Positions 9,443 to 60,491 of a stretch of 64,000 nucleotides of DNA are shown in pieces (positions within the stretch are counted from its first letter, which is position 1; each line of letters opens with the position of its first letter). The position numbers and the translations under genes were made by a program. This DNA is from Candidatus Methylomirabilota bacterium (GTDB lineage Bacteria > Methylomirabilota > Methylomirabilia > Rokubacteriales > CSP1-6), in the NCBI GenBank assembly GCA_036001065.1, contig DASYUQ010000033.1:37283-101282 (forward strand), in the 5' to 3' direction. The notes beneath the pieces were generated by a model. It saw only the letters and a program-made list of their open reading frames with translations. It ran no database searches and was not told where the DNA came from.

Positions 9443-10491
9443 CGCTCGACGATCCGGCGGCCATTGCGCGGGGCGACGCCCACCGGACGCGGGAGGTGCT
9501 GGCGGCCTTCCCGGCCCAGTGTCGCGCGGCGGTCGGGTTGCGGCCGGAGCCGGGCGGCGCGTTCGTCCGGCCTCGCACGGTGATCGTCGCCGGCATGGGG
9601 GGCTCCGCCGCGGGCGGCGATATGCTCGCCGCCTGCGCCGCCGAGCGCCTCGACGTACCGGTCCTGGTCCACCGGGGCTACGGCCTTCCGGCGCTCGCCG
9701 GCAAGCGCGATCTCGTCGTCGTGGTGTCGTACTCCGGGGACACGGCCGAGACGGTATCGGCGGCGGAAGCGGCGCTCGATCGCGGCTGCGCGCTTGTCGC
9801 CGTCACCGCGGGCGGCCGCCTGGCCGCGCTGGCGGCGCGGCGGAACCTGCCGCGCGTGGCCCTGCCCACCGGGCTGATGCCGCGGATGGCCCTGGGCTAT
9901 CTCTTCTTCCCGTTGCTCGCGATCCTGAAATCGGCCGACCTGACGGTCGTGGAGGACAGCGAAGTGGACGAGGCCCTCGGCGCCCTGGACGCGCAGGCGG
10001 GGGCGCTCCGGCCCGAATGCCCGGCTGCCGACAACGAGGCCAAACGCCTGGCGCTCGCCCTGGGCGGCCGGCTACCGGTGATCTACGGCGGGCCGGTCAC
10101 CGGCACCGTCGCCTACCGGTGGAAGACCGACCTCGCGGAGAACGCCAAGACGTTTGCCGCGTCCGGCACGCTGCCCGAGATGAACCACAACGAGATCGAG
10201 GCGTGGGGCGGCCCCTTCGCGCGCCAGATGCACCTGGTCCTCCTGCGCGACCACGAGGAGACGCCCGAGATCGCCCGCCGCTTCGCGCTCCTGCGCGAGC
10301 TCATCGGTGCGGCCGCCGGGGGGATCAGCGAAGTGTGGGCGCGGGGCACGGGGGCCGTGGCGCGGCTGCTGTCGCTGATCACGCTCGGCCAGTGGACGAG
10401 CTTCTACCTGGCCATCCTCCGCGGCGTCGATCCCTGGCCGGTACCGACGCTCGACGCGCTCAAGGCCCGCTTGCGCGGCGGCGCGCCCTGA
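9439..10491 (+). CDS. Bifunctional phosphoglucose/phosphomannose isomerase (archaeal-type PGI/PMI, double SIS)
   Basis: VIVAGMGGSAAGGDM and VVVVSYSGDTAE SIS motifs. The GTG at 9439 overlaps the GH57 stop (GTGA). An alternative start is the ATG at 9403. Confidence 0.7.
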   Translation: MTLDDPAAIARGDAHRTREVLAAFPAQCRAAVGLRPEPGGAFVRPRTVIVAGMGGSAAGGDMLAACAAERLDVPVLVHRGYGLPALAGKRDLVVVVSYSGDTAETVSAAEAALDRGCALVAVTAGGRLAALAARRNLPRVALPTGLMPRMALGYLFFPLLAILKSADLTVVEDSEVDEALGALDAQAGALRPECPAADNEAKRLALALGGRLPVIYGGPVTGTVAYRWKTDLAENAKTFAASGTLPEMNHNEIEAWGGPFARQMHLVLLRDHEETPEIARRFALLRELIGAAAGGISEVWARGTGAVARLLSLITLGQWTSFYLAILRGVDPWPVPTLDALKARLRGGAP

Positions 10492-10568
10492 GGGACGCGC
10501 GCGCCTGAAAATGACTCGAAAGTCCGGCGGCTGCGTGCTACACTGACCCGAATTTTTCTGCAGGAGGG

Positions 10569-13191: not shown

Positions 13192-15906
13192 ATGAGACGA
13201 TCCCAAACAGCTGTCCTGCTCGTCCTGGTCCTCCTGGTCCTGGGCCTCGTCGGGCAGATCGTCCCCCTCTACACGGATTGGCTCTGGTTCCAGGAGGTCG
13301 GCTACGTCCAGGTCTTCCTGACGACCCTTTGGTACCGAGGCACGCTCTTCACCGCCGTCGCCCTCGGCGTCCTCGTGTTCCTTTACGCGAACCTGACCTT
13401 CGCCGCCCGCACGGCGCGTCCCGACGTGCTCTGGGAGCTGGAGGACCAGCTCGGCCTGCCCGGCCGAGTGGTGATCGAGCCGCTCCTCCGCCGGTTCCTG
13501 CCCATCGTGCTCGCGTTCATCTCGTTCACCTCGGGCCTGCGGGCCAGCGCCCACTGGGAAACCGTCCTCGGCTACCTCAACGCGGTGCCGTTCAACACCA
13601 CCGACCCGCTCTTCGGCCGGGACCTGGCGTTCTTCGTCTTCACGCTGCCGTTCTGGCGCCTGCTGAGCGGCTGGGCCACCGCGCTCGTCGTGGGCACGCT
13701 CCTGCTCACGGTCCTGGTCTACGTGCTCCAGCGAAGCCTGGTGCTGACGGCGCGCGGCCCGCGGCTGGCGGCCGGCGCCCGGGCGCATCTGCTGGTGCTG
13801 GGGGCGCTGCTGCTGGCGCTCGCCGGCGTCGGGTTCTGGCTGGACCGGTTCGAGCTGGTCTACTCCCCACGCAGCGTCATCTACGGGGCCGCCTACACCG
13901 ACGTCCACGCCTCGCTGCCCGTGCTCCAGGCGCTGGCGGTGCTGGCGGTCCTCTGCGCCCTGGCCTGCCTGCTGCAGCTCACGCGCACAGGCCTCAGGGT
14001 CGTCGGGGCCGGCGTGCTCGTGCTGGTCGCCGTCTGGGTGGTGGGCCTGGGCATCTATCCCGCGCTCCTGCAGCGCTTTCGGGTCGCCCCCAACGAGCTG
14101 GTCGCCGAGCGGCCGTTCATCGTCCACAACATCCGGATGACCCGCCAGGCCTACGGGCTCGATCGCATCGAGGAGCACGAGTTCCCGGCCGACGAGACGC
14201 TGGATGCCCGGGCGCTCGAGCGCAACGTGCTGACGATCAAGAACATCCGGCTCTGGGACCACCGGCCGCTCCTCCGGACGTTCGCGCAGCTCCAGGAGAT
14301 CCGCACCTACTACAAGTTCGTGGACGTCGACAACGACCGCTACACGCTGAACGGCGAGTACCGGCAGCTCATGCTGTCGCCGCGCGAACTGTCCTACCCC
14401 CACCTGCAGGGGGCGCGGAGCTGGATCAACGAGCACCTGACGTTCACCCACGGCTACGGCGTGATCGTGGGGCCGGTGAACCGGATCACGTCCGAGGGGC
14501 TCCCGGAGCTCCTGGTCAAGGACATTCCTCCCAAGAGCGACGGCTTCGCCAAGATCACGCGACCCGAGATCTACTTCGGCGAGATCTCCAACGACTACGT
14601 GCTGCTGCGCACCCGCTCCCAGGAGCTCGATTACCCGGCCGGCGACCAGAACGTGTACACGACCTACCGGGGAACGGGTGGAATCCCGCTCTCGTCGTTC
14701 CTGCGCAAGGCCCTCTTCGCCGCGCGCTTCGGCGAGATCAAGATGCTGCTCTCCCACGACCTGACGGCGGAGAGCCGGGTCCTGATGCACCGGGCGGTCG
14801 CCGAGCGGGTGCGGCTCATCGCGCCGTTCTTCCGCTTCGATCGGGACCCGTACATCGTCGTCACCGACGACGGACGCCTGGTGTGGATGCTCGACGGCTA
14901 CACCACTACCGACCGCTACCCGTACTCGGAGCCGGTCCGCAACGTCGGCAACTACATCCGCAACTCGGTCAAGGTCACGGTGGACGCCTACCACGGCGCC
15001 GTCGGGTTCTACCTGGCCGACTCGACCGACCCCATCGTGCGCGCCTACGCCCGCGCCTTCCCCGGTCTCCTCCGCCCGCTGGAGGAGCTGCCCGCCGACC
15101 TGCGCCGGCATCTCCGCTACCCGGAGGACTTCTTCGCCATCCAGGCGCGGAAGTACGCCGTCTATCACATGCTGGAGCCCCAGGTCTTCTACAACAAGGA
15201 GGACCTCTGGGCCGTCCCGCGGCGGACCGTCGACGGCCGCGACCGCGAGATGGAGCCCTACTACACGATCATGCGGCTGCCCGGCGAGAAGCGGGAAGAG
15301 TTCATTTTACTGACGCTCTTCAACCCCTCCCGCCGGGACAACATGATCGCGTGGCTGGCCGGTCGCTCGGATCCGCCGAACTACGGGCGCCTCGTCGTCT
15401 ACAACTTCCCCAAGCAGAAGCTCGTCTATGGGCCCCGCCAAGTCGACGCGCGCATCGACCAGGACCCCGTCATCTCCCAGCAGCTGTCGCTCTGGAACCA
15501 GCGCGGCTCGACCGTGATCCGCGGCTCGCTGCTGGCCATCCCGATCGACCAGTCGCTGATCTACGTCCAGCCGCTCTACCTGGCGGCGTCCGAGCAGGGT
15601 GCGCTCCCCGAGCTCCGCCGCGTGATCGTCGCCTACGGCAATCAGATCGCGATGGAGCCGACGCTGGAGCAATCGCTGGCCCGCGTCTTCGGCGGGCGGC
15701 TCGCCAGCCCCGCGGCCGCTGTCCCGGCGCTCGGTCCCGGTGGGCAGCGTGAGCCGGCGCCTCCGCTCCGCGCCCTGGGCCACCGCGCCTGGGAGATCTG
15801 GCAGCGGGCGCAGGACGCGCTGCGACGGGGAGACTGGACCCAGTACGGCGCGGAGCAGAAGCGTCTGGAAGAGACGCTGCGCGCCCTCACCGAAGCCAAC
15901 CGCTAG
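13192..15906 (+). CDS. UPF0182 family large membrane protein (about 900 aa, N-terminal multi-TM region)
   Basis: MRRSQTAVLLVLVLLVLGLVGQIVPLYTDWLWFQEVGY... resembles the actinobacterial UPF0182 family. The ORF-track entry 12568..15906 is longer because its frame runs open through the ahcY 3' end. Confidence 0.7.
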   Translation: MRRSQTAVLLVLVLLVLGLVGQIVPLYTDWLWFQEVGYVQVFLTTLWYRGTLFTAVALGVLVFLYANLTFAARTARPDVLWELEDQLGLPGRVVIEPLLRRFLPIVLAFISFTSGLRASAHWETVLGYLNAVPFNTTDPLFGRDLAFFVFTLPFWRLLSGWATALVVGTLLLTVLVYVLQRSLVLTARGPRLAAGARAHLLVLGALLLALAGVGFWLDRFELVYSPRSVIYGAAYTDVHASLPVLQALAVLAVLCALACLLQLTRTGLRVVGAGVLVLVAVWVVGLGIYPALLQRFRVAPNELVAERPFIVHNIRMTRQAYGLDRIEEHEFPADETLDARALERNVLTIKNIRLWDHRPLLRTFAQLQEIRTYYKFVDVDNDRYTLNGEYRQLMLSPRELSYPHLQGARSWINEHLTFTHGYGVIVGPVNRITSEGLPELLVKDIPPKSDGFAKITRPEIYFGEISNDYVLLRTRSQELDYPAGDQNVYTTYRGTGGIPLSSFLRKALFAARFGEIKMLLSHDLTAESRVLMHRAVAERVRLIAPFFRFDRDPYIVVTDDGRLVWMLDGYTTTDRYPYSEPVRNVGNYIRNSVKVTVDAYHGAVGFYLADSTDPIVRAYARAFPGLLRPLEELPADLRRHLRYPEDFFAIQARKYAVYHMLEPQVFYNKEDLWAVPRRTVDGRDREMEPYYTIMRLPGEKREEFILLTLFNPSRRDNMIAWLAGRSDPPNYGRLVVYNFPKQKLVYGPRQVDARIDQDPVISQQLSLWNQRGSTVIRGSLLAIPIDQSLIYVQPLYLAASEQGALPELRRVIVAYGNQIAMEPTLEQSLARVFGGRLASPAAAVPALGPGGQREPAPPLRALGHRAWEIWQRAQDALRRGDWTQYGAEQKRLEETLRALTEANR

Positions 15907-37144: not shown

Positions 37145-37513
37145 ATGAGCGCCCGCGGGGAGGGGCTGCGGCGTATCGAGAAGGACATCGTCGCCGAGAA
37201 GGCGGCGACCCTCGGCCGCGCCGGCGAGCGCCTGGAGCAGGCCCTGGCCGAGGTGACCGAGCTCGGCGCCCGGCTCGCTGCGGCCACCGATCCCCAGGAG
37301 CGTGCCCGCCTCGGTCCCGAGTACGAGCGCGCGCGCGCGCGCGCCGCCAGCGCGCGGCTCGGGCTCCTGATTCAGCGTGAGGCGATCGGCCTGCGCCATC
37401 ACCGGATCGTGGACCAGCAGTTTCCCGAACCGCCACCGCTCGAGGCGGGGCCTTGCAGCCGGGGGACGGCAGTCGCAGGGAGCGCATCGACCGCGCCGAC
37501 CCCGCTGCCATGA
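37145..37513 (+). CDS. Hypothetical 122-aa coiled-coil protein, translationally coupled (ATGA) to the PaaK-like ligase gene
   Basis: GC3-rich coding texture. Its ATG (37145) is supplied by the end of repeat copy B, the same CTATGAGCGC junction as kdsA. Confidence 0.45.
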   Translation: MSARGEGLRRIEKDIVAEKAATLGRAGERLEQALAEVTELGARLAAATDPQERARLGPEYERARARAASARLGLLIQREAIGLRHHRIVDQQFPEPPPLEAGPCSRGTAVAGSASTAPTPLP

Positions 37514-38817
37514 TCTGGAACACGGCGGCCGAGACGCAGCCGCGAGCCGAGCGCGAAGCGCTCCAGCTGGCCCGCCTGCGAGACACCGTAGCCTGGGCCG
37601 CCGAGCGCGTGCCGTTCTACCGGGAGCGCCTGTCGGGCGCCTCCCTACGTAGCCTCGACGACCTGGCGCGCCTGCCGTGCACGCGCAAGGACGAGCTCCG
37701 CGCCCAGTACCCCTTCGGGCTCTTCGCCGTCCCCCAGTCGGAGCTCGCGCGCCTCCACGCCTCCTCGGGCACGAAAGGCAAGCCCACGGTGGTCGGTTAC
37801 ACCGCGGCGGACCTCGACGTCTGGCGCGAGGTCATGGCCCGCGTGATGGTGGCCGCCGGAGCACGGGCGGGTGATCTGCTGCACGTCGCGTTCGGCTACG
37901 GCCTCTTCACGGGCGGCCTCGGATTCCACCAGGGCGCCGAGCGCATCGGCCTGACCGTGGTGCCGGCTTCCTCGGGCAACACGGCGCGCCAGTGTCTGCT
38001 GCTCCGTGACCTCCGGCCCTCCGGCATCGCCGCGACGCCCTCCTTCGCCCTCCATATCGCCGAGACGCTGGCCGAGCAGGGGAGCAAGCCGGGGGAGACC
38101 GGGCTCCGCTACGGGATGTTCGGCGCCGAGCCCTGGAGCGAGGGCCTGCGCCACGCGATCGAGGCCGGGCTCGGCTGCCGCGCCTGCGACATCTACGGCC
38201 TCTCGGAGATCATCGGCCCCGGGGTGTCGGGAGAGTGCGAGGCGCGCGAAGGGCTCCACATCTGTGACGACCACTTCCTGCCCGAGGTCGTCGATCCCGC
38301 GTCCGGGGCCCCGCTGCCGCCGGGACGTCAGGGAGAGCTCGTCCTCACGACGCTCACCAAGCGCGCCATGCCCCTGATCCGCTACCGCACCGGCGACATC
38401 ACCGCGCTGACACTCGAGCCCTGCCGCTGCGGGCGGAGCTCCGCGCGAATGGCGCGACTCATCGGCCGGGCCGACGATATGCTTATCATCAAGGGAGTCA
38501 ACGTCTATCCCTCGGAGGTCGAGCAGGCGTTGCTGGACCTGGAGGACTTGGTGCCGCAGTACCGGCTGGTGGTCGACCGGACCGGGACCCTGGCGCGGGT
38601 CGAGGTGCAGGTCGAGCCGGCGCGGGCGTTCCTGGAGCGGTGCGGCAATCTGGAATCCGGCGGCCCGGCGGTGGCGGCGCTGCGCGAGCGGGTGGCCGGC
38701 CGCCTGCGCGCGGCCCTCGGGCTGAGCGTGGACGTAACGCTCCTGCCGGCCCGGACGCTTCCGCGCTCGGAGGGCAAGGCGGTTCGGGTCGTCGAACGAA
38801 CGGAGGGCAAGCGATGA
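37510..38817 (+). CDS. paaK: Phenylacetate-CoA ligase family (PaaK-like adenylate-forming enzyme)
   Basis: SSGTKGKPTVVGYT AMP-binding motif. YGLSE.. and C-terminal blocks of the PaaK/CapK/F390-synthetase family. 435 aa. Confidence 0.8.
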   Translation: MIWNTAAETQPRAEREALQLARLRDTVAWAAERVPFYRERLSGASLRSLDDLARLPCTRKDELRAQYPFGLFAVPQSELARLHASSGTKGKPTVVGYTAADLDVWREVMARVMVAAGARAGDLLHVAFGYGLFTGGLGFHQGAERIGLTVVPASSGNTARQCLLLRDLRPSGIAATPSFALHIAETLAEQGSKPGETGLRYGMFGAEPWSEGLRHAIEAGLGCRACDIYGLSEIIGPGVSGECEAREGLHICDDHFLPEVVDPASGAPLPPGRQGELVLTTLTKRAMPLIRYRTGDITALTLEPCRCGRSSARMARLIGRADDMLIIKGVNVYPSEVEQALLDLEDLVPQYRLVVDRTGTLARVEVQVEPARAFLERCGNLESGGPAVAALRERVAGRLRAALGLSVDVTLLPARTLPRSEGKAVRVVERTEGKR

Positions 38818-39635
38818 GCGACCTCGAGAAGGACATGATGGCGAAGATCGGGAGCGGCATCCGGCTGGAGTCGCCCGACGAAATGACGCCGGAGTATCGC
38901 GAGCACCTCGTGCACCTCATGACGATGCAGGCGGACTCGGAGCTGGCGGGCGGCTACGGCTACGTGCCGTGGATCACCAAGGCCCCGATCGTCGAGGAAA
39001 AGCACGTCGTGGCCCAGATCGTGAAGGACGAGCTCCGCCACGCCACGGTGCTGTACGGGCTGCTGGCCGATCTGGGTGTCGACGTCGAGCACCACGTGAG
39101 CGCCCACGACGAGATCTTCACGATGCGCATCGACCGCGATGCCGACCTCGGCACTAAGCGAATCACGAGTGACAAACGCGTGAACATTTTCTATTACCCA
39201 ATAGAGACATGGGCGGATTTCATATTCTTCAACTTCTGCATGGACCGCGGCGCCGGCCACCAGCTGGAGGACGTGCGCCACTGTTCCTACGGCCCCTGGG
39301 TCCGGGCCATCGAGGGCATCTTCAAGGAAGAGAAGTTCCACATCCGCCACGGCGAGTTCTGGGTGAAGAAGCTCGCGGACGACCCGGCGACGCACGACGA
39401 GGCCCAGGCTACCTTCAACAAGTGGTACATCCGGACGATGAATATCTTCGGGCGGCCGGGCTCGCCGAAGAACCGGCGCTACCGCGAGCTCCGGCTCAAG
39501 GCGCGCGACAACGACCAGGTCCGCCAGGCGTTCGCCACCGAGGTGAAGGCGCTCGGCGAGAAGTTCGGTCTGCAGGTGCCGGAGTGGAAGCCCAGGTGGG
39601 CGGACCTGCCGGAAGAAGCCCACATTCCCGGGTGA
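38814..39635 (+). CDS. PaaA/PaaC-family ferritin-like di-iron oxygenase subunit
   Basis: Two ExxH di-iron motifs (VKDELRH, QLEDVRH). PaaA-like blocks (WITKAP, YYP..TWADFIFF, SYGPW). The start overlaps the paaK stop. Confidence 0.7.
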   Translation: MSDLEKDMMAKIGSGIRLESPDEMTPEYREHLVHLMTMQADSELAGGYGYVPWITKAPIVEEKHVVAQIVKDELRHATVLYGLLADLGVDVEHHVSAHDEIFTMRIDRDADLGTKRITSDKRVNIFYYPIETWADFIFFNFCMDRGAGHQLEDVRHCSYGPWVRAIEGIFKEEKFHIRHGEFWVKKLADDPATHDEAQATFNKWYIRTMNIFGRPGSPKNRRYRELRLKARDNDQVRQAFATEVKALGEKFGLQVPEWKPRWADLPEEAHIPG

Positions 39636-39638
39636 CCC

Positions 39639-40121
39639 ATGACACCTCGTTACGGCGCGCCCGCTCCCGACTTCGCGCTCCCCTCCAGCCAGGGCGGGGA
39701 GGTCACCCTCGGAAGCTTCCGCGGCCAGGCCGACGTCGTGCTGGCCTTTTACTGCTACGACTGGGGCGGGATCTGAACTCCCGAGCTCACCGGCCTGGGC
39801 CAGGCCGCCGACCGCCTGCGTGAACGGGGGGCCGTCCTGCTGGCCATCAGCGGCGACAGTCCCTTCTGCCACACCGCCTTCGCCCAGGCCCGCAAGTTTC
39901 CGTTTCCGCTCCTGAGCGACGTGCACCGGACCGCGATCCGGGCCTACGGAGTGCTCGACGAGGACCGTAACGTGGCCTATCGCTCGACGTTCATCGTGGA
40001 CCGCGACGGGATCCTTCGCTGGGGGCAGGCCGGCGAGCGCCAGATGGTCCGGGAGGGGACCGAGATCCTCCGGGTCCTCGACCTCGTCGCCTCGCTGCGC
40101 CAGTCGGGGTCCAACGCATAG
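39639..40121 (+). CDS. Bcp/PrxQ-type peroxiredoxin with an in-frame UGA (39774-39776) at the peroxidatic-Cys position: candidate selenocysteine-containing peroxiredoxin
   Basis: Read-through translation is MTPRYGAPAPDFALPSSQGGEVTLGSFRGQADVVLAFYCYDWGGI-U-TPELTGLGQAADRLRERGAVLLAISGDSPFCHTAFAQARKFPFPLLSD... It aligns to E. coli Bcp ([33 protein letters not shown]...FTLLSD), so the U falls on Cp. Callers report only the 66-aa tail ORF (39921..40121). Confidence 0.7.
39791..39807 (+). promoter_or_regulatory. SECIS-like hairpin (CGGCCUG-GGC-CAGGCCG) 14 nt downstream of the Prx UGA
   Basis: A perfect 7-bp GC stem with a G-rich 3-nt loop. Spacing and loop G residues are compatible with bacterial SECIS elements. 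Confidence 0.45.
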
Positions 40122-40149
40122 TTGACATAATACCTCTTATCGGAAGTAC

Positions 40150-40171
40150 GCCCGCCGCGCTACGGGCGGGC
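40150..40171. terminator. GC hairpin (GCCCGCC-N8-GGCGGGC) between the convergent prx and TPR genes; possible bidirectional terminator
   Basis: 7-bp perfect stem. The TPR gene's stop lies in the loop. An AT-rich stretch (TTGACATAATACC) sits just upstream. Confidence 0.4.
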
Positions 40172-41758: not shown

Positions 41759-42073
41759 TCACTGCGGAATCTCGACGAAGACCACGCCGTTCTCCACGAT
41801 GACCGGGAAGCACGCGACCTTGAGACCGGGATTGTTGGCGTTGGCCCCGGTGGCCACGTCCCAGCGCCAGCCGTGCCACGGGCACGCGACGATGCGGCCT
41901 TCCAGATCGCCCTCACCCAGCGGGCCACCGCGGTGCGCGCACGTGTTGTCGAGGGCGTAGAACCGGCCTTCGATGTTGAACAACGCCAGGGTGTGGCCGC
42001 CCGCCTGGACGACCCGGCCCTCGCCGACGGGCACCTCGCTGACCGCGGCTACTTTCACCCGTGATTGTCCCAC
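41759..42073 (-). CDS. Rieske [2Fe-2S] domain protein (NirD-like small Rieske ferredoxin)
   Basis: CAHRGGPL...CPWHGW Rieske ligands. GTG start with a GGGAGGAGG RBS. Confidence 0.85.
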   Translation of the reverse strand: MGQSRVKVAAVSEVPVGEGRVVQAGGHTLALFNIEGRFYALDNTCAHRGGPLGEGDLEGRIVACPWHGWRWDVATGANANNPGLKVACFPVIVENGVVFVEIPQ

Positions 42074-42129
42074 CGCGTTGCCTCCTCCCTGCCCGGAATG
42101 CCCCTATAATAAGCGCGGAGGGCCCCTCG

Positions 42130-43500
42130 ATGATCTTCCACCAGCTGCAGAACGAGGAGTCGGGGTGCCTGTCGTATCTGATCGGCTGCGGCCAGGCGGG
42201 CGAGGCGGTCGTGGTGGATCCCGGGCGTGATCGGGTGGACGAGTACATCCGGCTGGCGCGGAAGAAGGGGCTGAAGATCACCCGGATCATCGAGACCCAC
42301 ACCCACGCCGATCACATCTCGGGCAACCGCGACCTGGCCGCGCTCACCCAGGCGCCCATCCTCCTCCATCACGCCAGCAAGGCCATCTTCGACCACCTCA
42401 CGGTGAGGGACGGCGACGAGGTCCGGATCGGCACCGTCTCGCTCAAGGTCCTGCACACGCCCGGGCACACGCCCGACAGCCTGTGCCTGCTGGTGACCGA
42501 CCGCGGCCGGGGCAGCGACCCCTGGTTCGTCCTCACCGGCGACACGCTCTTCATCGGCGACGTCGGGCGCCCCGACCTGGGTGGCGAGCAGGCGGCGGCC
42601 GACCTCTACGAGAGCCTGCACACGGCGCTCTGGCCCCTCCGCGACAGCGTCGAGGTGTATCCGGCGCACGGCGCGGGCTCGCTCTGCGGACGCGCGATGT
42701 CCTCCAAGTCGGCCTCGACCATCGGCTTCGAGCGGCGCTTCAACCCGGCGCTGGCGGCCCCGAACAAGGACGAGTTCGTGCAGCTCGTGATGAGCGGCCT
42801 GCCGGCGAAGCCGCCCTCCTTCGAGACCATCGTCGGCAAGAATCAGGGGACCATCCCGCTGGCCAGCGCGAAGCCCCGCCCCTACACCGCGCGCGAGGCG
42901 TGGGAGGCGGTGCAGCACGGCGCCTGCGTCGTCGACCTGCGCGAGCCCTCCACGTACGGCGAGGGCCACGTGCCTGGGGCGATCAACGTCTGGATCGAGA
43001 GCCCGCAGTTCGCCGACCGCGTGAGCTGGTTCGTGCCGGCGGGGGCGCCGCTGATCCTCGTGGCCTCGGGCCCCTCCGACCTCGACCGCGCGCTCGGCGG
43101 ACTGACGCGGGTGGGCGTCGACCAGGTCGCGGGGTTCCTCCAGCGCGGCATGATCGAGTGGCGCAGCGACGAGCTCCCGGTGGAAACCGTCCCCCAGATG
43201 ACGGTGTACGACCTGGCCGAGTGGCTGGAGGAACGGCGCGATGTCGTGGTCGTCGACGTGCGGGAGCCGTTCGAATGGCGCGAGGGCCACATCGACGGCG
43301 CTCTGCACTTGCCCATGCTGGAGGCCGCCCGCCGGCTGGACGAGGTCCCGCCCGACCGTCCCAAAGCCGTCCTCTGCGCGGGGGGCTTGCGCTCCAGCAC
43401 GGTGATCAGCGCGCTGAAGCGTCGGGGAATCGGGAACTGGTATAACGTCGCGGGCGGGATGACGGCGTGGCTGAAGGCGGGCCATCCGGTCAGGCGTTAG
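42130..43500 (+). CDS. MBL-fold persulfide dioxygenase fused to two rhodanese domains (CstB/ETHE1-rhodanese type)
   Basis: HTHADH metal motif. Two rhodanese modules, the second with an active-site CAGGLRS. Perfect TATAAT at 42105-10. Confidence 0.8.
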   Translation: MIFHQLQNEESGCLSYLIGCGQAGEAVVVDPGRDRVDEYIRLARKKGLKITRIIETHTHADHISGNRDLAALTQAPILLHHASKAIFDHLTVRDGDEVRIGTVSLKVLHTPGHTPDSLCLLVTDRGRGSDPWFVLTGDTLFIGDVGRPDLGGEQAAADLYESLHTALWPLRDSVEVYPAHGAGSLCGRAMSSKSASTIGFERRFNPALAAPNKDEFVQLVMSGLPAKPPSFETIVGKNQGTIPLASAKPRPYTAREAWEAVQHGACVVDLREPSTYGEGHVPGAINVWIESPQFADRVSWFVPAGAPLILVASGPSDLDRALGGLTRVGVDQVAGFLQRGMIEWRSDELPVETVPQMTVYDLAEWLEERRDVVVVDVREPFEWREGHIDGALHLPMLEAARRLDEVPPDRPKAVLCAGGLRSSTVISALKRRGIGNWYNVAGGMTAWLKAGHPVRR

Positions 43501-59909: not shown

Positions 59910-60023
59910 GCTGAGGCCCTCGGACGGAAGCGGCGCGCCGTCCCGCAGGCTCCCGCGGAAGGATGCTTCACGCCGGTGAGTGTGTTAATCGTTGACGGGC
60001 AGCGGCTCGGGGGAGGCGGACCG

Positions 60024-60491
60024 ATGGGCGAGCGAGATCCCGAAATCATCGTTCCCGGTCAAGGGCGGCGGGAGTCAGGGGAGTTCGTCTCCCAGCCGGC
60101 GAAACTGCTCCGGATCGCGTCGATGATCCGAGAGCTGTTGCAAGAGGTCCGGCAGTCTTCTCTGGACGAGGCCGGTCGGAAACGCCTGCGCGAGATATAC
60201 GACCGGGCGCTGGCGGAGCTGAAGGAGGGCCTGTCGGAGGATCTGCAGCAGGAGCTCGGCACGCTCGCGATCCCCCTTCAAGGGACGCCCAGCGAGTCGG
60301 AAATCCGCATCGCCCAGGCCCAGCTGGTGGGGTGGCTGGAAGGGCTGTTCCACGGAATTCAGGCCGCCCTGTGGGCGCAGCACATGCAGGCCCGGGCCCA
60401 GTTCGAGGAGATGCGTCGCCGAGGATTGCCCCCGGGCTCCCCGGGGGCGCCGGGCGAAGCCGAGGCATCCGGGCCCGGCCAGTATCTGTAG
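60024..60491 (+). CDS. bpa: Bacterial proteasome activator (Bpa/PafE)-like protein ending in GQYL
   Basis: Helical about 155 aa protein whose last four residues are GQYL, the 20S-proteasome docking motif of Bpa. GGGGGAGG RBS before the ATG at 60024. An alternative GTG lies at 59976. Confidence 0.55.
   Translation: MGERDPEIIVPGQGRRESGEFVSQPAKLLRIASMIRELLQEVRQSSLDEAGRKRLREIYDRALAELKEGLSEDLQQELGTLAIPLQGTPSESEIRIAQAQLVGWLEGLFHGIQAALWAQHMQARAQFEEMRRRGLPPGSPGAPGEAEASGPGQYL

What the first reader, a model, noticed from the sequence alone, without database searches (positions are those of the whole stretch)
39639..40121. Candidate selenocysteine-containing Bcp/PrxQ peroxiredoxin missed by ORF calling
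A 45-codon ATG-initiated frame (MTPRYGAPAPDFALPSSQGGEVTLGSFRGQADVVLAFYCYDWGGI) runs into TGA at 39774-76 and continues in the same frame for 114 more codons. The continuation begins TPELTGLGQAADRLRERGAVLLAISGDSPFCHTAFAQARKFPFPLLSD. The joined product aligns along its length to Bcp-type peroxiredoxins. The UGA sits exactly where the peroxidatic Cys of the T-P-x-C motif belongs. A perfect 7-bp GC hairpin with a G-rich loop starts 14 nt after the UGA (39791-39807), which is where bacterial SECIS elements lie. UGA is used as an ordinary stop by many neighbouring genes, so genome-wide reassignment is excluded. Automated calling yields only the 66-aa tail (39921..40121). It also misses the N-terminal half, which has no stop-delimited ORF of 60 aa or more.
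Basis: partly seen in the sequence, partly recalled or inferred. Interest (0 to 1): 0.8.

Follow-up and report, generated by a model that had tools for sequence, protein, structure and literature searches.

The report
Selenocysteine peroxiredoxin with unusual active site
This is one real 160-codon gene for a peroxiredoxin-fold enzyme whose catalytic residue is selenocysteine, encoded by an in-frame UGA that gene callers read as a stop; Sec-peroxiredoxins are known, but this Rokubacteria clade has also lost two active-site residues normally conserved in these enzymes, one of which (Thr) is considered essential.

Summary
ATG 39639 to TGA 39774-76 to TAG 40119-21 is one reading frame. The joined product matches Pfam AhpC/TSA end to end (2e-35).

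Fifty-six species-level genomes, almost all Rokubacteria/Methylomirabilota, carry orthologs. Including the window that makes 57 sequences, and all 57 have TGA at this codon, never TAA, TAG or Cys. Both flanks evolve as coding sequence.

The 17-nt hairpin at 39791-39807 meets every published bacterial SECIS criterion. It is maintained by compensatory changes, by frozen synonymous sites and by G·U wobbles, which place the structure in the sense RNA.

The UGA aligns with the peroxidatic Cys45 of M. tuberculosis AhpE and sits at the start of helix α2 in a confident model.

The protein is AhpE/Prx1-like, not Bcp/PrxQ. The canonical PxxxTxxC motif is CxxxGxxU here: Pro→Cys39 and Thr→Gly43 in 57/57, while the nearest Cys-type relatives (≤46% identity) keep Pro and Thr/Ser.

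Sec machinery could not be checked because the window matches only metagenome contigs. Support is limited to literature reports of Sec use in Methylomirabilota.

Verdict: a real selenoprotein gene and a new variant of a known kind. No curated NCBIfam model claims it.

The parts
39639..40121 (+). Complete selenoprotein CDS: 160 residues including Sec46, plus the TAG stop. AhpE/Prx1-like peroxiredoxin fold.
   Evidence: The translation is continuous apart from the UGA. Pfam AhpC-TSA scores 2.1e-35 and covers profile positions 2-123 of 124. The best PDB hit is M. tuberculosis AhpE at 2e-21. An AF2 model of clade member P0002 has pLDDT 94 and a Prx fold. Fifty-six orthologs match across the UGA.
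39774..39776 (+). In-frame UGA, inferred selenocysteine codon (residue 46, the peroxidatic position).
   Evidence: The codon is TGA in 57/57 orthologous sequences, against a mixed set of true terminators. It aligns with Cys45 of AhpE and with the C_P Cys of all nearest Cys-type relatives. It is the first residue of helix α2 in the model.
39791..39807 (+). Bacterial SECIS element: 7-bp stem with a 3-nt GGC apical loop, 21 nt between the UGA and the loop.
   Evidence: RNAalifold returns it as the only consensus structure. Cells are 98.2% paired, and 0 of 500 shuffles reach the observed covariation. Pair 20-32 is GC 25, AU 22, GU 10, AC 0, with at least 13 independent changes. Stem synonymous sites are frozen while the loop and the next codon vary freely. 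The window hairpin folds at -11.2 kcal/mol, 55/57 elements reach -7.5 or lower, and loop position 1 is G in 57/57.
39753..39755 (+). Cys39 codon (TGC), at the position of the canonical Pro of PxxxTxxC. Candidate resolving residue (C-x6-U).
   Evidence: Cys in 57/57 orthologous sequences. The nearest Cys-type relatives have Pro, or rarely Val or Leu, here. In AhpE the equivalent Pro38 lies close to the reactive centre (PMC7231847). The resolving role is inferred.
39765..39767 (+). Gly43 codon, at the position of the canonical catalytic Thr/Ser.
   Evidence: Gly in 57/57. It aligns with Thr42 of AhpE and with Ser/Thr in all the nearest Cys-type relatives examined.
39981..39983 (+). Arg115 codon, the conserved active-site Arg of peroxiredoxins.
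   Evidence: Arg in 57/57. It aligns with Arg116 of AhpE (AYRSTF against ANRGTF).
39867..39869 (+). Cys77 codon (SPFCH). A second, less conserved Cys and an alternative resolving candidate.
   Evidence: Cys 53, Ser 3, Val 1 across the 57 sequences.

Best explanation
Positions 39639-40121 are a single gene for a 160-residue peroxiredoxin-fold selenoprotein.

Recoding. During translation, the 17-nt hairpin at 39791-39807 in the mRNA recruits SelB·GTP·Sec-tRNA(Sec). The UGA at 39774-76, 21 nt upstream of the apical loop, is then decoded as selenocysteine instead of terminating.

Active site. Sec46 occupies the peroxidatic position at the N-terminus of helix α2, next to the conserved Arg115 and Glu49.

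Proposed chemistry. Sec46 attacks a hydroperoxide to give a selenenic acid. The invariant Cys39, which sits where other peroxiredoxins have the active-site Pro, most probably captures this as an intramolecular selenenylsulfide. Cys77 is a less likely alternative. An external thiol reductase then reduces the bond.

Role of the lost Thr. A selenol is ionised and highly nucleophilic on its own, so the clade could lose the otherwise essential Thr (Gly43 here).

Shown: one coding frame, the conserved UGA, SECIS structure with covariation, the Prx fold and the alignment of U with C_P.

Inferred: actual Sec insertion, peroxidase activity, the Cys39 resolving role and the reason for the Thr loss.
For: Family and fold:
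- The joined ORF matches Pfam AhpC/TSA full length at 2.1e-35.
- U aligns with AhpE Cys45 and with the C_P of the Cys-type relatives.
- The model has pLDDT 94, helix α2 starts at residue 46, and the top fold hits are Prx1 and AhpE.

The UGA and both flanks:
- 56 orthologous loci were retrieved, one per species-level genome. With the window that makes 57 sequences, and all 57 have TGA at this column. Terminal stops in the same genes are TGA 31, TAA 17, TAG 8.
- Variation by codon position upstream of the UGA is 0.03, 0.08, 0.24. No locus has a stop within 38 codons upstream.

SECIS:
- RNAalifold returns this hairpin as the only consensus helix. It is 98.2% paired, against 10-44% for slid controls.
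- The key pair is GC 25, AU 22, GU 10, AC 0, with at least 13 independent changes.
- In the stem, Val is always GTC (32/32, background 0.46), Arg is always CGG (10/10, background 0.26) and Leu is CTG in 51/57 (background 0.40). The loop third position and the next codon vary freely.
- All published bSECIS criteria are met (PMC13188914). Control 17-mers in the same genes reach -7.5 kcal/mol in only 1.1% of cases.

Genetic code and sequence quality:
- TGA is a normal terminator in the window, ending 20 of 36 genes.
- The C-terminal 66 codons are identical, and the same 45-aa ORF ending at the UGA is called, in independent assemblies.

Phylum:
- Methylomirabilota are reported to be Sec users. One MAG was predicted to hold 63 selenoprotein genes (Deng et al. 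2026, cited in PMC13188914). Sec-type hydrogenases are also reported (PMC13582414).
Against: - No selA, selB, selD or tRNA-Sec was found in the window or in the 1.02 Mb of related sequence held. The only records found to match the window are metagenome contigs, so the machinery cannot be checked for this organism.
- No Rfam hit.
- The single-sequence fold is not better than shuffles.
- The stem changes that covary are partly non-synonymous (Gly/Asp with Ala/Val), so protein-level coevolution contributes an alternative reading for that one pair.
- The clade lacks the Pro and Thr of the Prx catalytic motif. The Thr has been reported as replaceable only by Ser (PMC7231847). Peroxidase activity is therefore less certain than Sec insertion.
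- There is no experimental evidence: no proteomics and no 75Se labelling.
Confidence: 0.82

Rival explanations
1. The recoding is the same, Sec at UGA46 through the SECIS, but the chemistry differs. Having lost the catalytic Thr and Pro, the protein is not a peroxidase. It would be a selenol/thiol oxidoreductase that uses a C39-x6-U46 redox pair on a Prx scaffold, for example a reductase or isomerase for a specific substrate.
For: Gly43 and Cys39 replace Thr and Pro in 57/57 sequences. All the nearest Cys-type relatives examined keep Thr/Ser, and most keep Pro. In studied Prxs the Thr can be replaced only by Ser (PMC7231847). No curated Prx equivalog model reaches its cut-off. Known 'Prx-like' selenoproteins on this fold are thiol:disulfide oxidoreductases (PMC13188914).
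Against: Arg115 and Glu49, the other conserved AhpE active-site residues, are invariant. U sits exactly at C_P, and the fold is closest to bona fide peroxidases. A hydroxyl residue (Thr or Ser) is invariant directly after U and could substitute for the lost Thr. Sec may make the Thr dispensable.
Confidence: 0.2
2. The UGA is recoded, but to cysteine or another standard amino acid rather than Sec. One route would be a SECIS-dependent tRNA-ReC (SelC*)-type tRNA. Another would be near-cognate read-through.
For: tRNA-ReC decodes UGA as Cys in the presence of a downstream SECIS, and such tRNAs occur in several MAG lineages (PMC13582414). No tRNA-Sec could be examined for this organism.
Against: If Cys were the product, TGC or TGT would be expected at least occasionally. 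The count is 0 of 57 across lineages up to 31% divergent. No full-length Cys-type member exists within the clade at 50% identity or above. In that study tRNA-ReC was linked mainly to UXXU motifs and was not reported for Methylomirabilota.
Confidence: 0.05
3. The UGA is a true stop. Options are a pseudogene, a sequencing error, or two separate small genes, with the hairpin acting as an ordinary terminator or attenuator or arising by chance in GC-rich DNA.
For: Gene callers annotate it this way. The single-sequence fold is not significant.
Against: All 57 sequences, from 56 species-level genomes plus the window, keep the same TGA. Purifying selection acts on both sides in the same frame. The segment after the UGA has no conserved start codon: called fragments begin at many different positions and run 88-109 aa. 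Neither fragment is a complete Prx domain. The hairpin has no T-tract, and its G·U pairs and frozen synonymous sites indicate a functional sense-strand RNA. The same 45-aa ORF ending at the UGA is called in independent assemblies.
Confidence: 0.02
4. UGA is reassigned genome-wide to a sense codon (Trp or Gly, translation tables 4 or 25), as the 'W' in database translations suggests.
For: Nine 'full-length' database entries carry W at this column.
Against: Those entries also read through the genuine terminal TGA into unconserved tails. The underlying DNA has a stop there under table 11. TGA ends 20 of 36 well-supported genes in the window and 31 of 56 orthologs. The scan found only one other internal in-frame TGA candidate in the window (10927, minus strand), and it was not followed up.
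Confidence: 0.01

Closest known systems
Selenocysteine-containing peroxiredoxin PrxU (Eubacterium acidaminophilum, Söhling et al. 2001) and the 'Prx' selenoprotein family with the PxxxTxxU motif (PF00578; NCBIfam NF040737)
   Same: Both have the AhpC/TSA fold. Both have Sec encoded by UGA at the peroxidatic position, with a bacterial SECIS immediately downstream.
   Different: The window protein scores 66 bits against the PrxU equivalog, whose cut-off is 270. It is about 70 residues shorter than that model (160 residues against 233 model positions). The defining PxxxTxxU motif is CxxxGxxU here, in 57/57 sequences.
Mycobacterium tuberculosis AhpE (Rv2238c; PDB 1XXU, 4X0X), 1-Cys peroxiredoxin of the AhpE subfamily
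   Same: It is the best solved-structure match by sequence (2e-21, about 35% identity, full length) and gives the best mutual structural coverage (TMt 0.89). Both are about 155-160 residues. Glu48 and Arg116 have conserved equivalents. C_P aligns with U.
   Different: AhpE has Cys, Pro38 and Thr42. This clade has Sec, Cys39 and Gly43. AhpE is reduced by mycoredoxin and mycothiol; the reductant here is unknown. The clade also carries the extra Cys39 and Cys77.
'Prx-like' selenoproteins (Prx-like 1, 2, 3 and UGC-containing; UxxC or UxxU motifs) from the Sargasso Sea and GOS surveys
   Same: They are Sec proteins on a PF00578 or PF08534 thioredoxin-like scaffold, and they were found only by reading through UGA.
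   Different: Those proteins carry a Trx-type UxxC redox motif and are thiol:disulfide oxidoreductases. Here the residues after U are T-P-E, with no UxxC, and the partner Cys lies 7 residues upstream.
Bacterial SECIS consensus (bSECISearch model of Zhang and Gladyshev; prototype E. coli fdhF)
   Same: The apical loop is 3 nt, the stem is 7 bp, loop position 1 is G and is usually followed by G, the UGA-to-loop spacing is 21 nt, and the MFE is -11.2 kcal/mol. All values fall within the published ranges.
   Different: The element is minimal. It has no lower stem, bulge or internal loop conserved across the clade, and its loop is at the smallest allowed size.

Membership tests
Peroxiredoxin superfamily (Pfam AhpC/TSA PF00578) | Profile match above the curated gathering score over the whole domain | tested here: met
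   121.8 bits against a cut-off of 26, covering profile positions 2-123 of 124.
Peroxiredoxin superfamily (Pfam AhpC/TSA PF00578) | Thioredoxin-like Prx fold with the peroxidatic residue in the first turn of helix α2 | tested here: met
   The AF2 model has pLDDT 94 and pTM 0.90, with a helix spanning residues 46-62. Foldseek gives TM 0.87-0.91 to Prx2, Prx1 and AhpE.
Peroxiredoxin superfamily (Pfam AhpC/TSA PF00578) | Peroxidatic Cys (or Sec) at the C_P column | tested here: met
   The UGA codon aligns with AhpE Cys45 and with the C_P of all Cys-type relatives.
Peroxiredoxin superfamily (Pfam AhpC/TSA PF00578) | Conserved active-site Arg | tested here: met
   Arg115 is present in 57/57 and aligns with AhpE Arg116.
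Peroxiredoxin superfamily (Pfam AhpC/TSA PF00578) | Conserved Thr/Ser of PxxxTxxC | tested here: not met
   Gly43 in 57/57. Relatives have Ser or Thr at this column.
Peroxiredoxin superfamily (Pfam AhpC/TSA PF00578) | Conserved Pro of PxxxTxxC | tested here: not met
   Cys39 in 57/57. Most relatives have Pro.
Peroxiredoxin superfamily (Pfam AhpC/TSA PF00578) | Hydroperoxide reductase activity | not testable with these tools
   Needs enzymology.
Sec-peroxiredoxin PrxU / 'Prx' selenoprotein family (TxxU) | NCBIfam equivalog NF040737 above its cut-off | tested here: not met
   66.1 bits against a cut-off of 270.
Sec-peroxiredoxin PrxU / 'Prx' selenoprotein family (TxxU) | PxxxTxxU motif | tested here: not met
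   The motif here is CYDWGGIU. The family motif is taken from PMC13188914.
AhpE subfamily | Closest sequence and structure relative; short single-domain Prx without a C-terminal C_R arm | tested here: inconclusive
   AhpE is the top PDB sequence hit at 79.7 bits, but Prx2 reaches 71 bits. The fold search ranks Prx1-type and AhpE equally. No active-site-profile classifier such as PREX was available.
   NCBIfam PrxQ scores 51.9 bits and Bcp 45.6 bits, both below PrxU and AhpC and far below their cut-offs. PDB Bcp chains score 60-64 bits, below AhpE and Prx1. No Bcp or PrxQ chain appears in the Foldseek top 50.
Bacterial SECIS element (bSECIS consensus model) | Apical loop of 3-9 nt and upper stem of 4-16 bp | tested here: met
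   The loop is 3 nt, or 5 nt in 4 loci. The stem is 7 bp, or 6 bp in 8 loci. Criteria are from PMC13188914.
Bacterial SECIS element (bSECIS consensus model) | G in one of the first two apical-loop positions, usually followed by G or U | tested here: met
   Loop position 1 is G in 57/57. The first two positions are GG 47, GU 3, GC 4, GA 3.
Bacterial SECIS element (bSECIS consensus model) | 16-37 nt between the UGA and the apical loop | tested here: met
   21 nt in all 57 sequences, with a gap-free register.
Bacterial SECIS element (bSECIS consensus model) | MFE of -7.5 kcal/mol or lower | tested here: met
   The window element folds at -11.2 kcal/mol. 55 of 57 elements reach -7.5 or lower, and the median is -9.1.
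Bacterial SECIS element (bSECIS consensus model) | Binds SelB and directs Sec insertion | not testable with these tools
   Needs a reporter or binding assay.
Bacterial selenoprotein gene | In-frame UGA conserved among orthologs, with coding conservation on both sides and Cys at the same column in homologs | tested here: met
Bacterial selenoprotein gene | selA, selB, selC and selD present in the same genome | not testable with these tools
   The only records found to match the window are metagenome contigs. None of these genes is in the window or in the 1.02 Mb of related flanks. Only phylum-level literature support exists.

The most novel reading that the evidence does not exclude
This clade would be a distinct catalytic class of peroxiredoxin in which selenocysteine has made the universally conserved Thr and Pro of the Prx active site dispensable. 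The Pro position has been recruited as a built-in resolving Cys that forms a C39-Se46 selenenylsulfide inside the folded active site. That would make it an obligate-Sec enzyme: no member with Cys, or any other sense codon, at this column was confirmed within the clade. It would also be a natural experiment on what Sec does that Cys cannot.
Probability: 0.3. Interest if true: 0.65.

Novelty: new variant of a known kind. Interest (0 to 1): 0.5.

Why it matters
Annotation. Hundreds of database entries for this clade are truncated 88-109-aa 'redoxin/AhpC' fragments or code-4 mistranslations with Trp at the active site. Among those inspected, the only apparent sense-codon exceptions were two unverified entries showing Leu at this column. 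No curated NCBIfam model recognises the family. A dedicated HMM with a Sec column would correct annotation across Rokubacteria/Methylomirabilota. It would also add a marker for the large selenoproteome recently predicted for this phylum.

Mechanism. The active-site Thr is considered essential in peroxiredoxins. A clade that replaced it with Gly while switching Cys to Sec and placing a Cys at the Pro position offers a direct test. The question is whether the intrinsic reactivity of Sec substitutes for the activating network of the Prx active site.

Limits. Sec at the peroxidatic position of a Prx has been known since 2001, so the general phenomenon is not new.

Tried and rejected
- Rfam gathering scan of the window: no hit. 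Bacterial SECIS elements are too short and too variable for it.
- Single-sequence folding of 39774-39840: not better than shuffles. It was replaced by comparative analysis.
- ARAGORN on the window and on 56 loci: no tRNA-Sec.
- Pfam and NCBIfam annotation of about 45 ORFs across the window: no selA, selB or selD.
- Scan for other in-frame-TGA genes in the window and in related flanks. The window gave one other candidate (10927, minus strand), which was not followed up. The flank hits all looked like ordinary gene boundaries.
- Loci L058-L060 from the genome scan are unrelated TlpA-like CxxC proteins pulled in by a peptide pattern. They were discarded.
- Look-ups of P0003 (Leu at the Sec column) and of the T2SSE neighbour: not on record.
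- A functional link to the upstream PaaK and PaaA-like genes was rejected, because synteny holds only in the six closest genomes.
- Literature searches for an AhpE-type or Thr-less Sec-Prx found no prior description. Deng et al. 2026 and Haft & Tolstoy 2025 are not held in the library and could not be checked.
Full report
OBSERVATION. The sequence is as described. An ATG at 39639 opens a frame that meets TGA at 39774-76 after 45 sense codons. The frame continues for 114 more codons to TAG at 40119-21. Mechanical ORF listing gives only a 45-aa ORF (39639..39776) and a 66-aa ORF (39921..40121). Gene callers on three independent public assemblies carrying the identical C-terminal sequence produced exactly these two fragments. 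The hairpin CGGCCUG-GGC-CAGGCCG occupies 39791-39807, 14 nt after the UGA. The window is 69% G+C. TGA terminates 20 of 36 Pfam-supported genes in the window. One of them is the PaaA-like gene, whose TGA lies 3 nt before this ATG.

IS IT ONE GENE? With Cys substituted for the stop, the joined 160-residue product matches Pfam AhpC/TSA at 2.1e-35 over profile positions 2-123 of 124. A search of 5.8 billion proteins gave 962 hits with a telling pattern. A few were 'full-length' entries. Hundreds were 88-109-aa entries covering only the C-terminal 55-67% of the query. Nine of the eleven full-length entries carry W at the UGA column and run on past the normal C-terminus. The DNA of one of them, P0002, has a stop at that column under table 11. 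They are therefore code-4 mistranslations of short contigs.

A scan of one genome per GTDB species returned 56 orthologous loci at 68-90% identity. Nearly all are labelled Rokubacteria or Methylomirabilota. Counting the window there are 57 sequences, and all 57 have TGA at the aligned codon. The same genes' true terminators are TGA 31, TAA 17, TAG 8. The 14 codons before the UGA vary at codon positions 1, 2 and 3 by 0.03, 0.08 and 0.24. Synonymous differences outnumber non-synonymous ones there. No locus has a stop within 38 codons upstream. Both halves are thus translated in one frame. This excludes a pseudogene, a sequencing error, two separate genes and a genome-wide reassignment of UGA.

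THE RNA ELEMENT. Folding the window sequence alone is not significant in this GC-rich background, and Rfam is silent. Across the 57 sequences, aligned without gaps, RNAalifold returns this 7-bp hairpin as the only consensus structure.
- Pairing: 98.2% of cells pair, against 10-44% when partners are slid. No shuffle out of 500 reaches the observed covariation.
- Key pair: pair 20-32 is G-C 25, A-U 22, G-U 10, A-C 0. On a tree built from the rest of the gene this needs at least 13 independent changes.
- Closing pair: it flips G-C to C-G in three genomes.
- Synonymous sites in the stem are frozen. Val is always GTC (32/32, background 0.46). Arg is always CGG (10/10, background 0.26). Leu is CTG in 51/57 (background 0.40). 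Gly is always GGC (35/35).
- The loop's third position and the codon after the stem vary freely.
- The 20 G·U cells would be A·C mismatches on the other strand, so the constraint acts on the sense RNA.

The element was tested against the published bacterial SECIS model (PMC13188914). The model asks for a 3-9 nt loop, a 4-16 bp stem, G in the first two loop positions, 16-37 nt spacing and MFE of -7.5 kcal/mol or lower. The element has a 3-nt loop, a 7-bp stem, G at loop position 1 in 57/57 (GG in 47), 21-nt spacing and -11.2 kcal/mol. In all, 55/57 elements reach -7.5 or lower, against 1.1% of control 17-mers from the same genes.

WHAT KIND OF PEROXIREDOXIN? The best solved relative by sequence is M. 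tuberculosis AhpE (Rv2238c) at 2e-21. The UGA aligns with its peroxidatic Cys45: WGGI-U-TPEL against FTGI-C-QGEL. An AlphaFold model of clade member P0002 is confident (pLDDT 94, pTM 0.90). Its helix α2 starts at residue 46. Foldseek places it with Prx1-type enzymes and AhpE at TM 0.87-0.91, and no Bcp/PrxQ chain appears in the top 50. NCBIfam PrxQ and Bcp models score below PrxU and AhpC. No model approaches its cut-off; the best is PrxU at 66 bits against 270. The protein is therefore a short AhpE/Prx1-like Prx, not Bcp/PrxQ, and not an ortholog of the classical Sec-peroxiredoxin PrxU.

THE UNUSUAL PART. Peroxiredoxins, including the known Sec forms, are defined by PxxxTxxC/U plus a distal Arg (PMC13188914). 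Here the motif is C-Y-D-W-G-G-I-U.
- Cys39 replaces the Pro and Gly43 replaces the Thr, each in 57/57 sequences.
- Arg115 and Glu49 are invariant. Residue 47, directly after U, is Thr or Ser in all 57 sequences.
- An exhaustive search of 1.84 billion cluster representatives found only fragments at 60% identity or above. The nearest full-length proteins are 46% identical or less.
- All of those examined keep Ser or Thr, and most keep Pro, for example FYPLDFSGTCTKEL.

No member with Cys at the catalytic column was seen in the clade, and the Pro→Cys and Thr→Gly changes are specific to it. For MtAhpE, Pro38 lies close to the reactive centre. The Thr is reported to be exchangeable only for Ser, not for residues without a hydroxyl (PMC7231847).

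MECHANISM. Shown: the single frame, the conserved UGA, the SECIS with covariation, the Prx fold and U at the C_P position.

Inferred from established knowledge of bacterial Sec insertion: SelB·GTP·Sec-tRNA(Sec) binds the hairpin and delivers Sec to the UGA 21 nt upstream of the loop.

Inferred from Prx chemistry: the Sec46 selenolate attacks a hydroperoxide, and the resulting selenenic acid is captured by a nearby Cys. The preferred candidate is the invariant Cys39 at the Pro position, seven residues away. Cys77 is conserved in only 53/57. A thiol reductase then regenerates the enzyme. The low pKa and high nucleophilicity of Sec offer a plausible reason why the activating Thr could be lost. 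A competing reading, with probability about 0.2, is that the scaffold now performs a different selenol/thiol redox reaction.

CONTEXT. The gene follows a PaaK-like ligase and a PaaA/PaaC-like di-iron protein. It is convergent with a TPR protein. A Rieske ferredoxin and an MBL-rhodanese fusion lie beyond. This arrangement holds only in the six closest genomes, so no family-wide functional link is implied. The rest of the window is housekeeping: DnaE, ValS, GuaA, an IMPDH/GMP-reductase-family gene, MetK, AhcY and RpoN.

WHAT COULD NOT BE SHOWN. No selA, selB, selD or tRNA-Sec lies in the window or in the 1.02 Mb of related sequence held. The only records found to match the window are metagenome contigs: JGI Ga0376049_0000226 matches its first part, and short Logan contigs match the Prx region.

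Indirect support comes from the literature. A Methylomirabilota MAG was predicted to encode 63 selenoproteins (Deng et al. 2026, cited in PMC13188914). Sec-type [NiFeSe] hydrogenases occur in the phylum, and selABCD was found, allowing one missing gene, in about 90% of Sec-type genomes overall (PMC13582414). UGA→Cys recoding by tRNA-ReC cannot be formally excluded. It is disfavoured because TGC or TGT never appears at this codon.

NOVELTY AND SCORE. Sec-peroxiredoxins and bacterial SECIS elements are well known, and Sec use in this phylum has been reported. The new points are as follows.
- The clade is widespread, consistently mis-annotated and obligately Sec.
- It lacks both the Pro and the Thr of the Prx signature and has an invariant Cys at the Pro position.
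- No curated model recognises it, and I found no description of it in the accessible literature.

I classify it as a new variant of a known kind, with interest 0.5.

Noticed in passing
window 40122-40145 (+); L002:10014-10037; L001:~10490-10513: An AT-rich 24-mer, TTGACATAATACCTCTTATCGGAA, sits directly after the Prx stop codon in a 69% GC contig. It is unique in the window. It is conserved downstream of the orthologs in the closest genomes, and in L001 the Prx TGA stop lies inside it. A 7-bp GC hairpin (40150-40170) follows and overlaps the 3' end of the convergent TPR gene. Function unknown; it could be a protein-binding site, a promoter-like element or part of a terminator.
   Followed up: partly
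database proteins P0001, P0002, P0004-P0010; L063:260-733: Public 'full-length' entries of this clade are JGI translations in which TGA was read as Trp. They carry W at the Sec position and read through the genuine terminal TGA into spurious tails. They could mislead alignments and structure predictions.
   Followed up: yes
database proteins P0003 and P0135: Two entries show Leu at the Sec column (…GGILTPEL…). P0003 is not on record in the contig index, so the codon could not be inspected. P0135 looks frameshifted downstream. Unexplained; possibly sequencing or translation artefacts.
   Followed up: partly
loci L006, L016, L023, L024, L026, L030, L035, L044, L054: Orthologs at 69-75% identity sit on contigs of MAGs from a single catalogue (isolate names SMAG_U…) labelled Nitrosocosmicus (an archaeon), Dormiibacterota, Limnocylindria, Verrucomicrobiia, Acidoferrum, Deferrimicrobiaceae, Binatia and Myxococcales. 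Given the near-exclusive Rokubacteria distribution otherwise, these look like mis-binned contigs rather than horizontal transfer.
   Followed up: no
window 39633-39641: The TGA stop of the upstream PaaA/PaaC-like gene is in the same frame as the Prx ATG and only 3 nt before it (…IPG-TGA-CCC-ATG…). This suggests translational coupling. A naive 'read through every TGA' approach would wrongly fuse the two genes.
   Followed up: partly
window 42043-43500 (+) and 41759-42103 (-): A metallo-β-lactamase-fold protein fused to rhodanese domains, resembling a persulfide dioxygenase/sulfurtransferase, lies divergent from a Rieske [2Fe-2S] ferredoxin. This sulfur-redox neighbourhood is conserved only in the closest relatives.
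   Followed up: partly
window 59910-60491 (+): A bacterial proteasome activator (Bpa, PF10759, 7e-54) is encoded here. This implies a proteasome system in this organism.
   Followed up: no
window ~13192-15906 (+): JGI calls a 904-aa UPF0182 protein here on a contig encoding the identical MetK protein. My own Pfam query used the overlapping wrong-frame ORF 13278-15752 and found nothing. Long spurious ORFs on alternative frames are common in this high-GC window.
   Followed up: partly
window 37453-38817 and 38640-39635 (+): The listed ORFs of the PaaK-like ligase and the PaaA-like protein overlap by about 180 nt. The Pfam match to PaaA starts at residue 76 of the latter. Its true start is therefore probably near or after 38817, not the GTG at 38640.
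   Followed up: no
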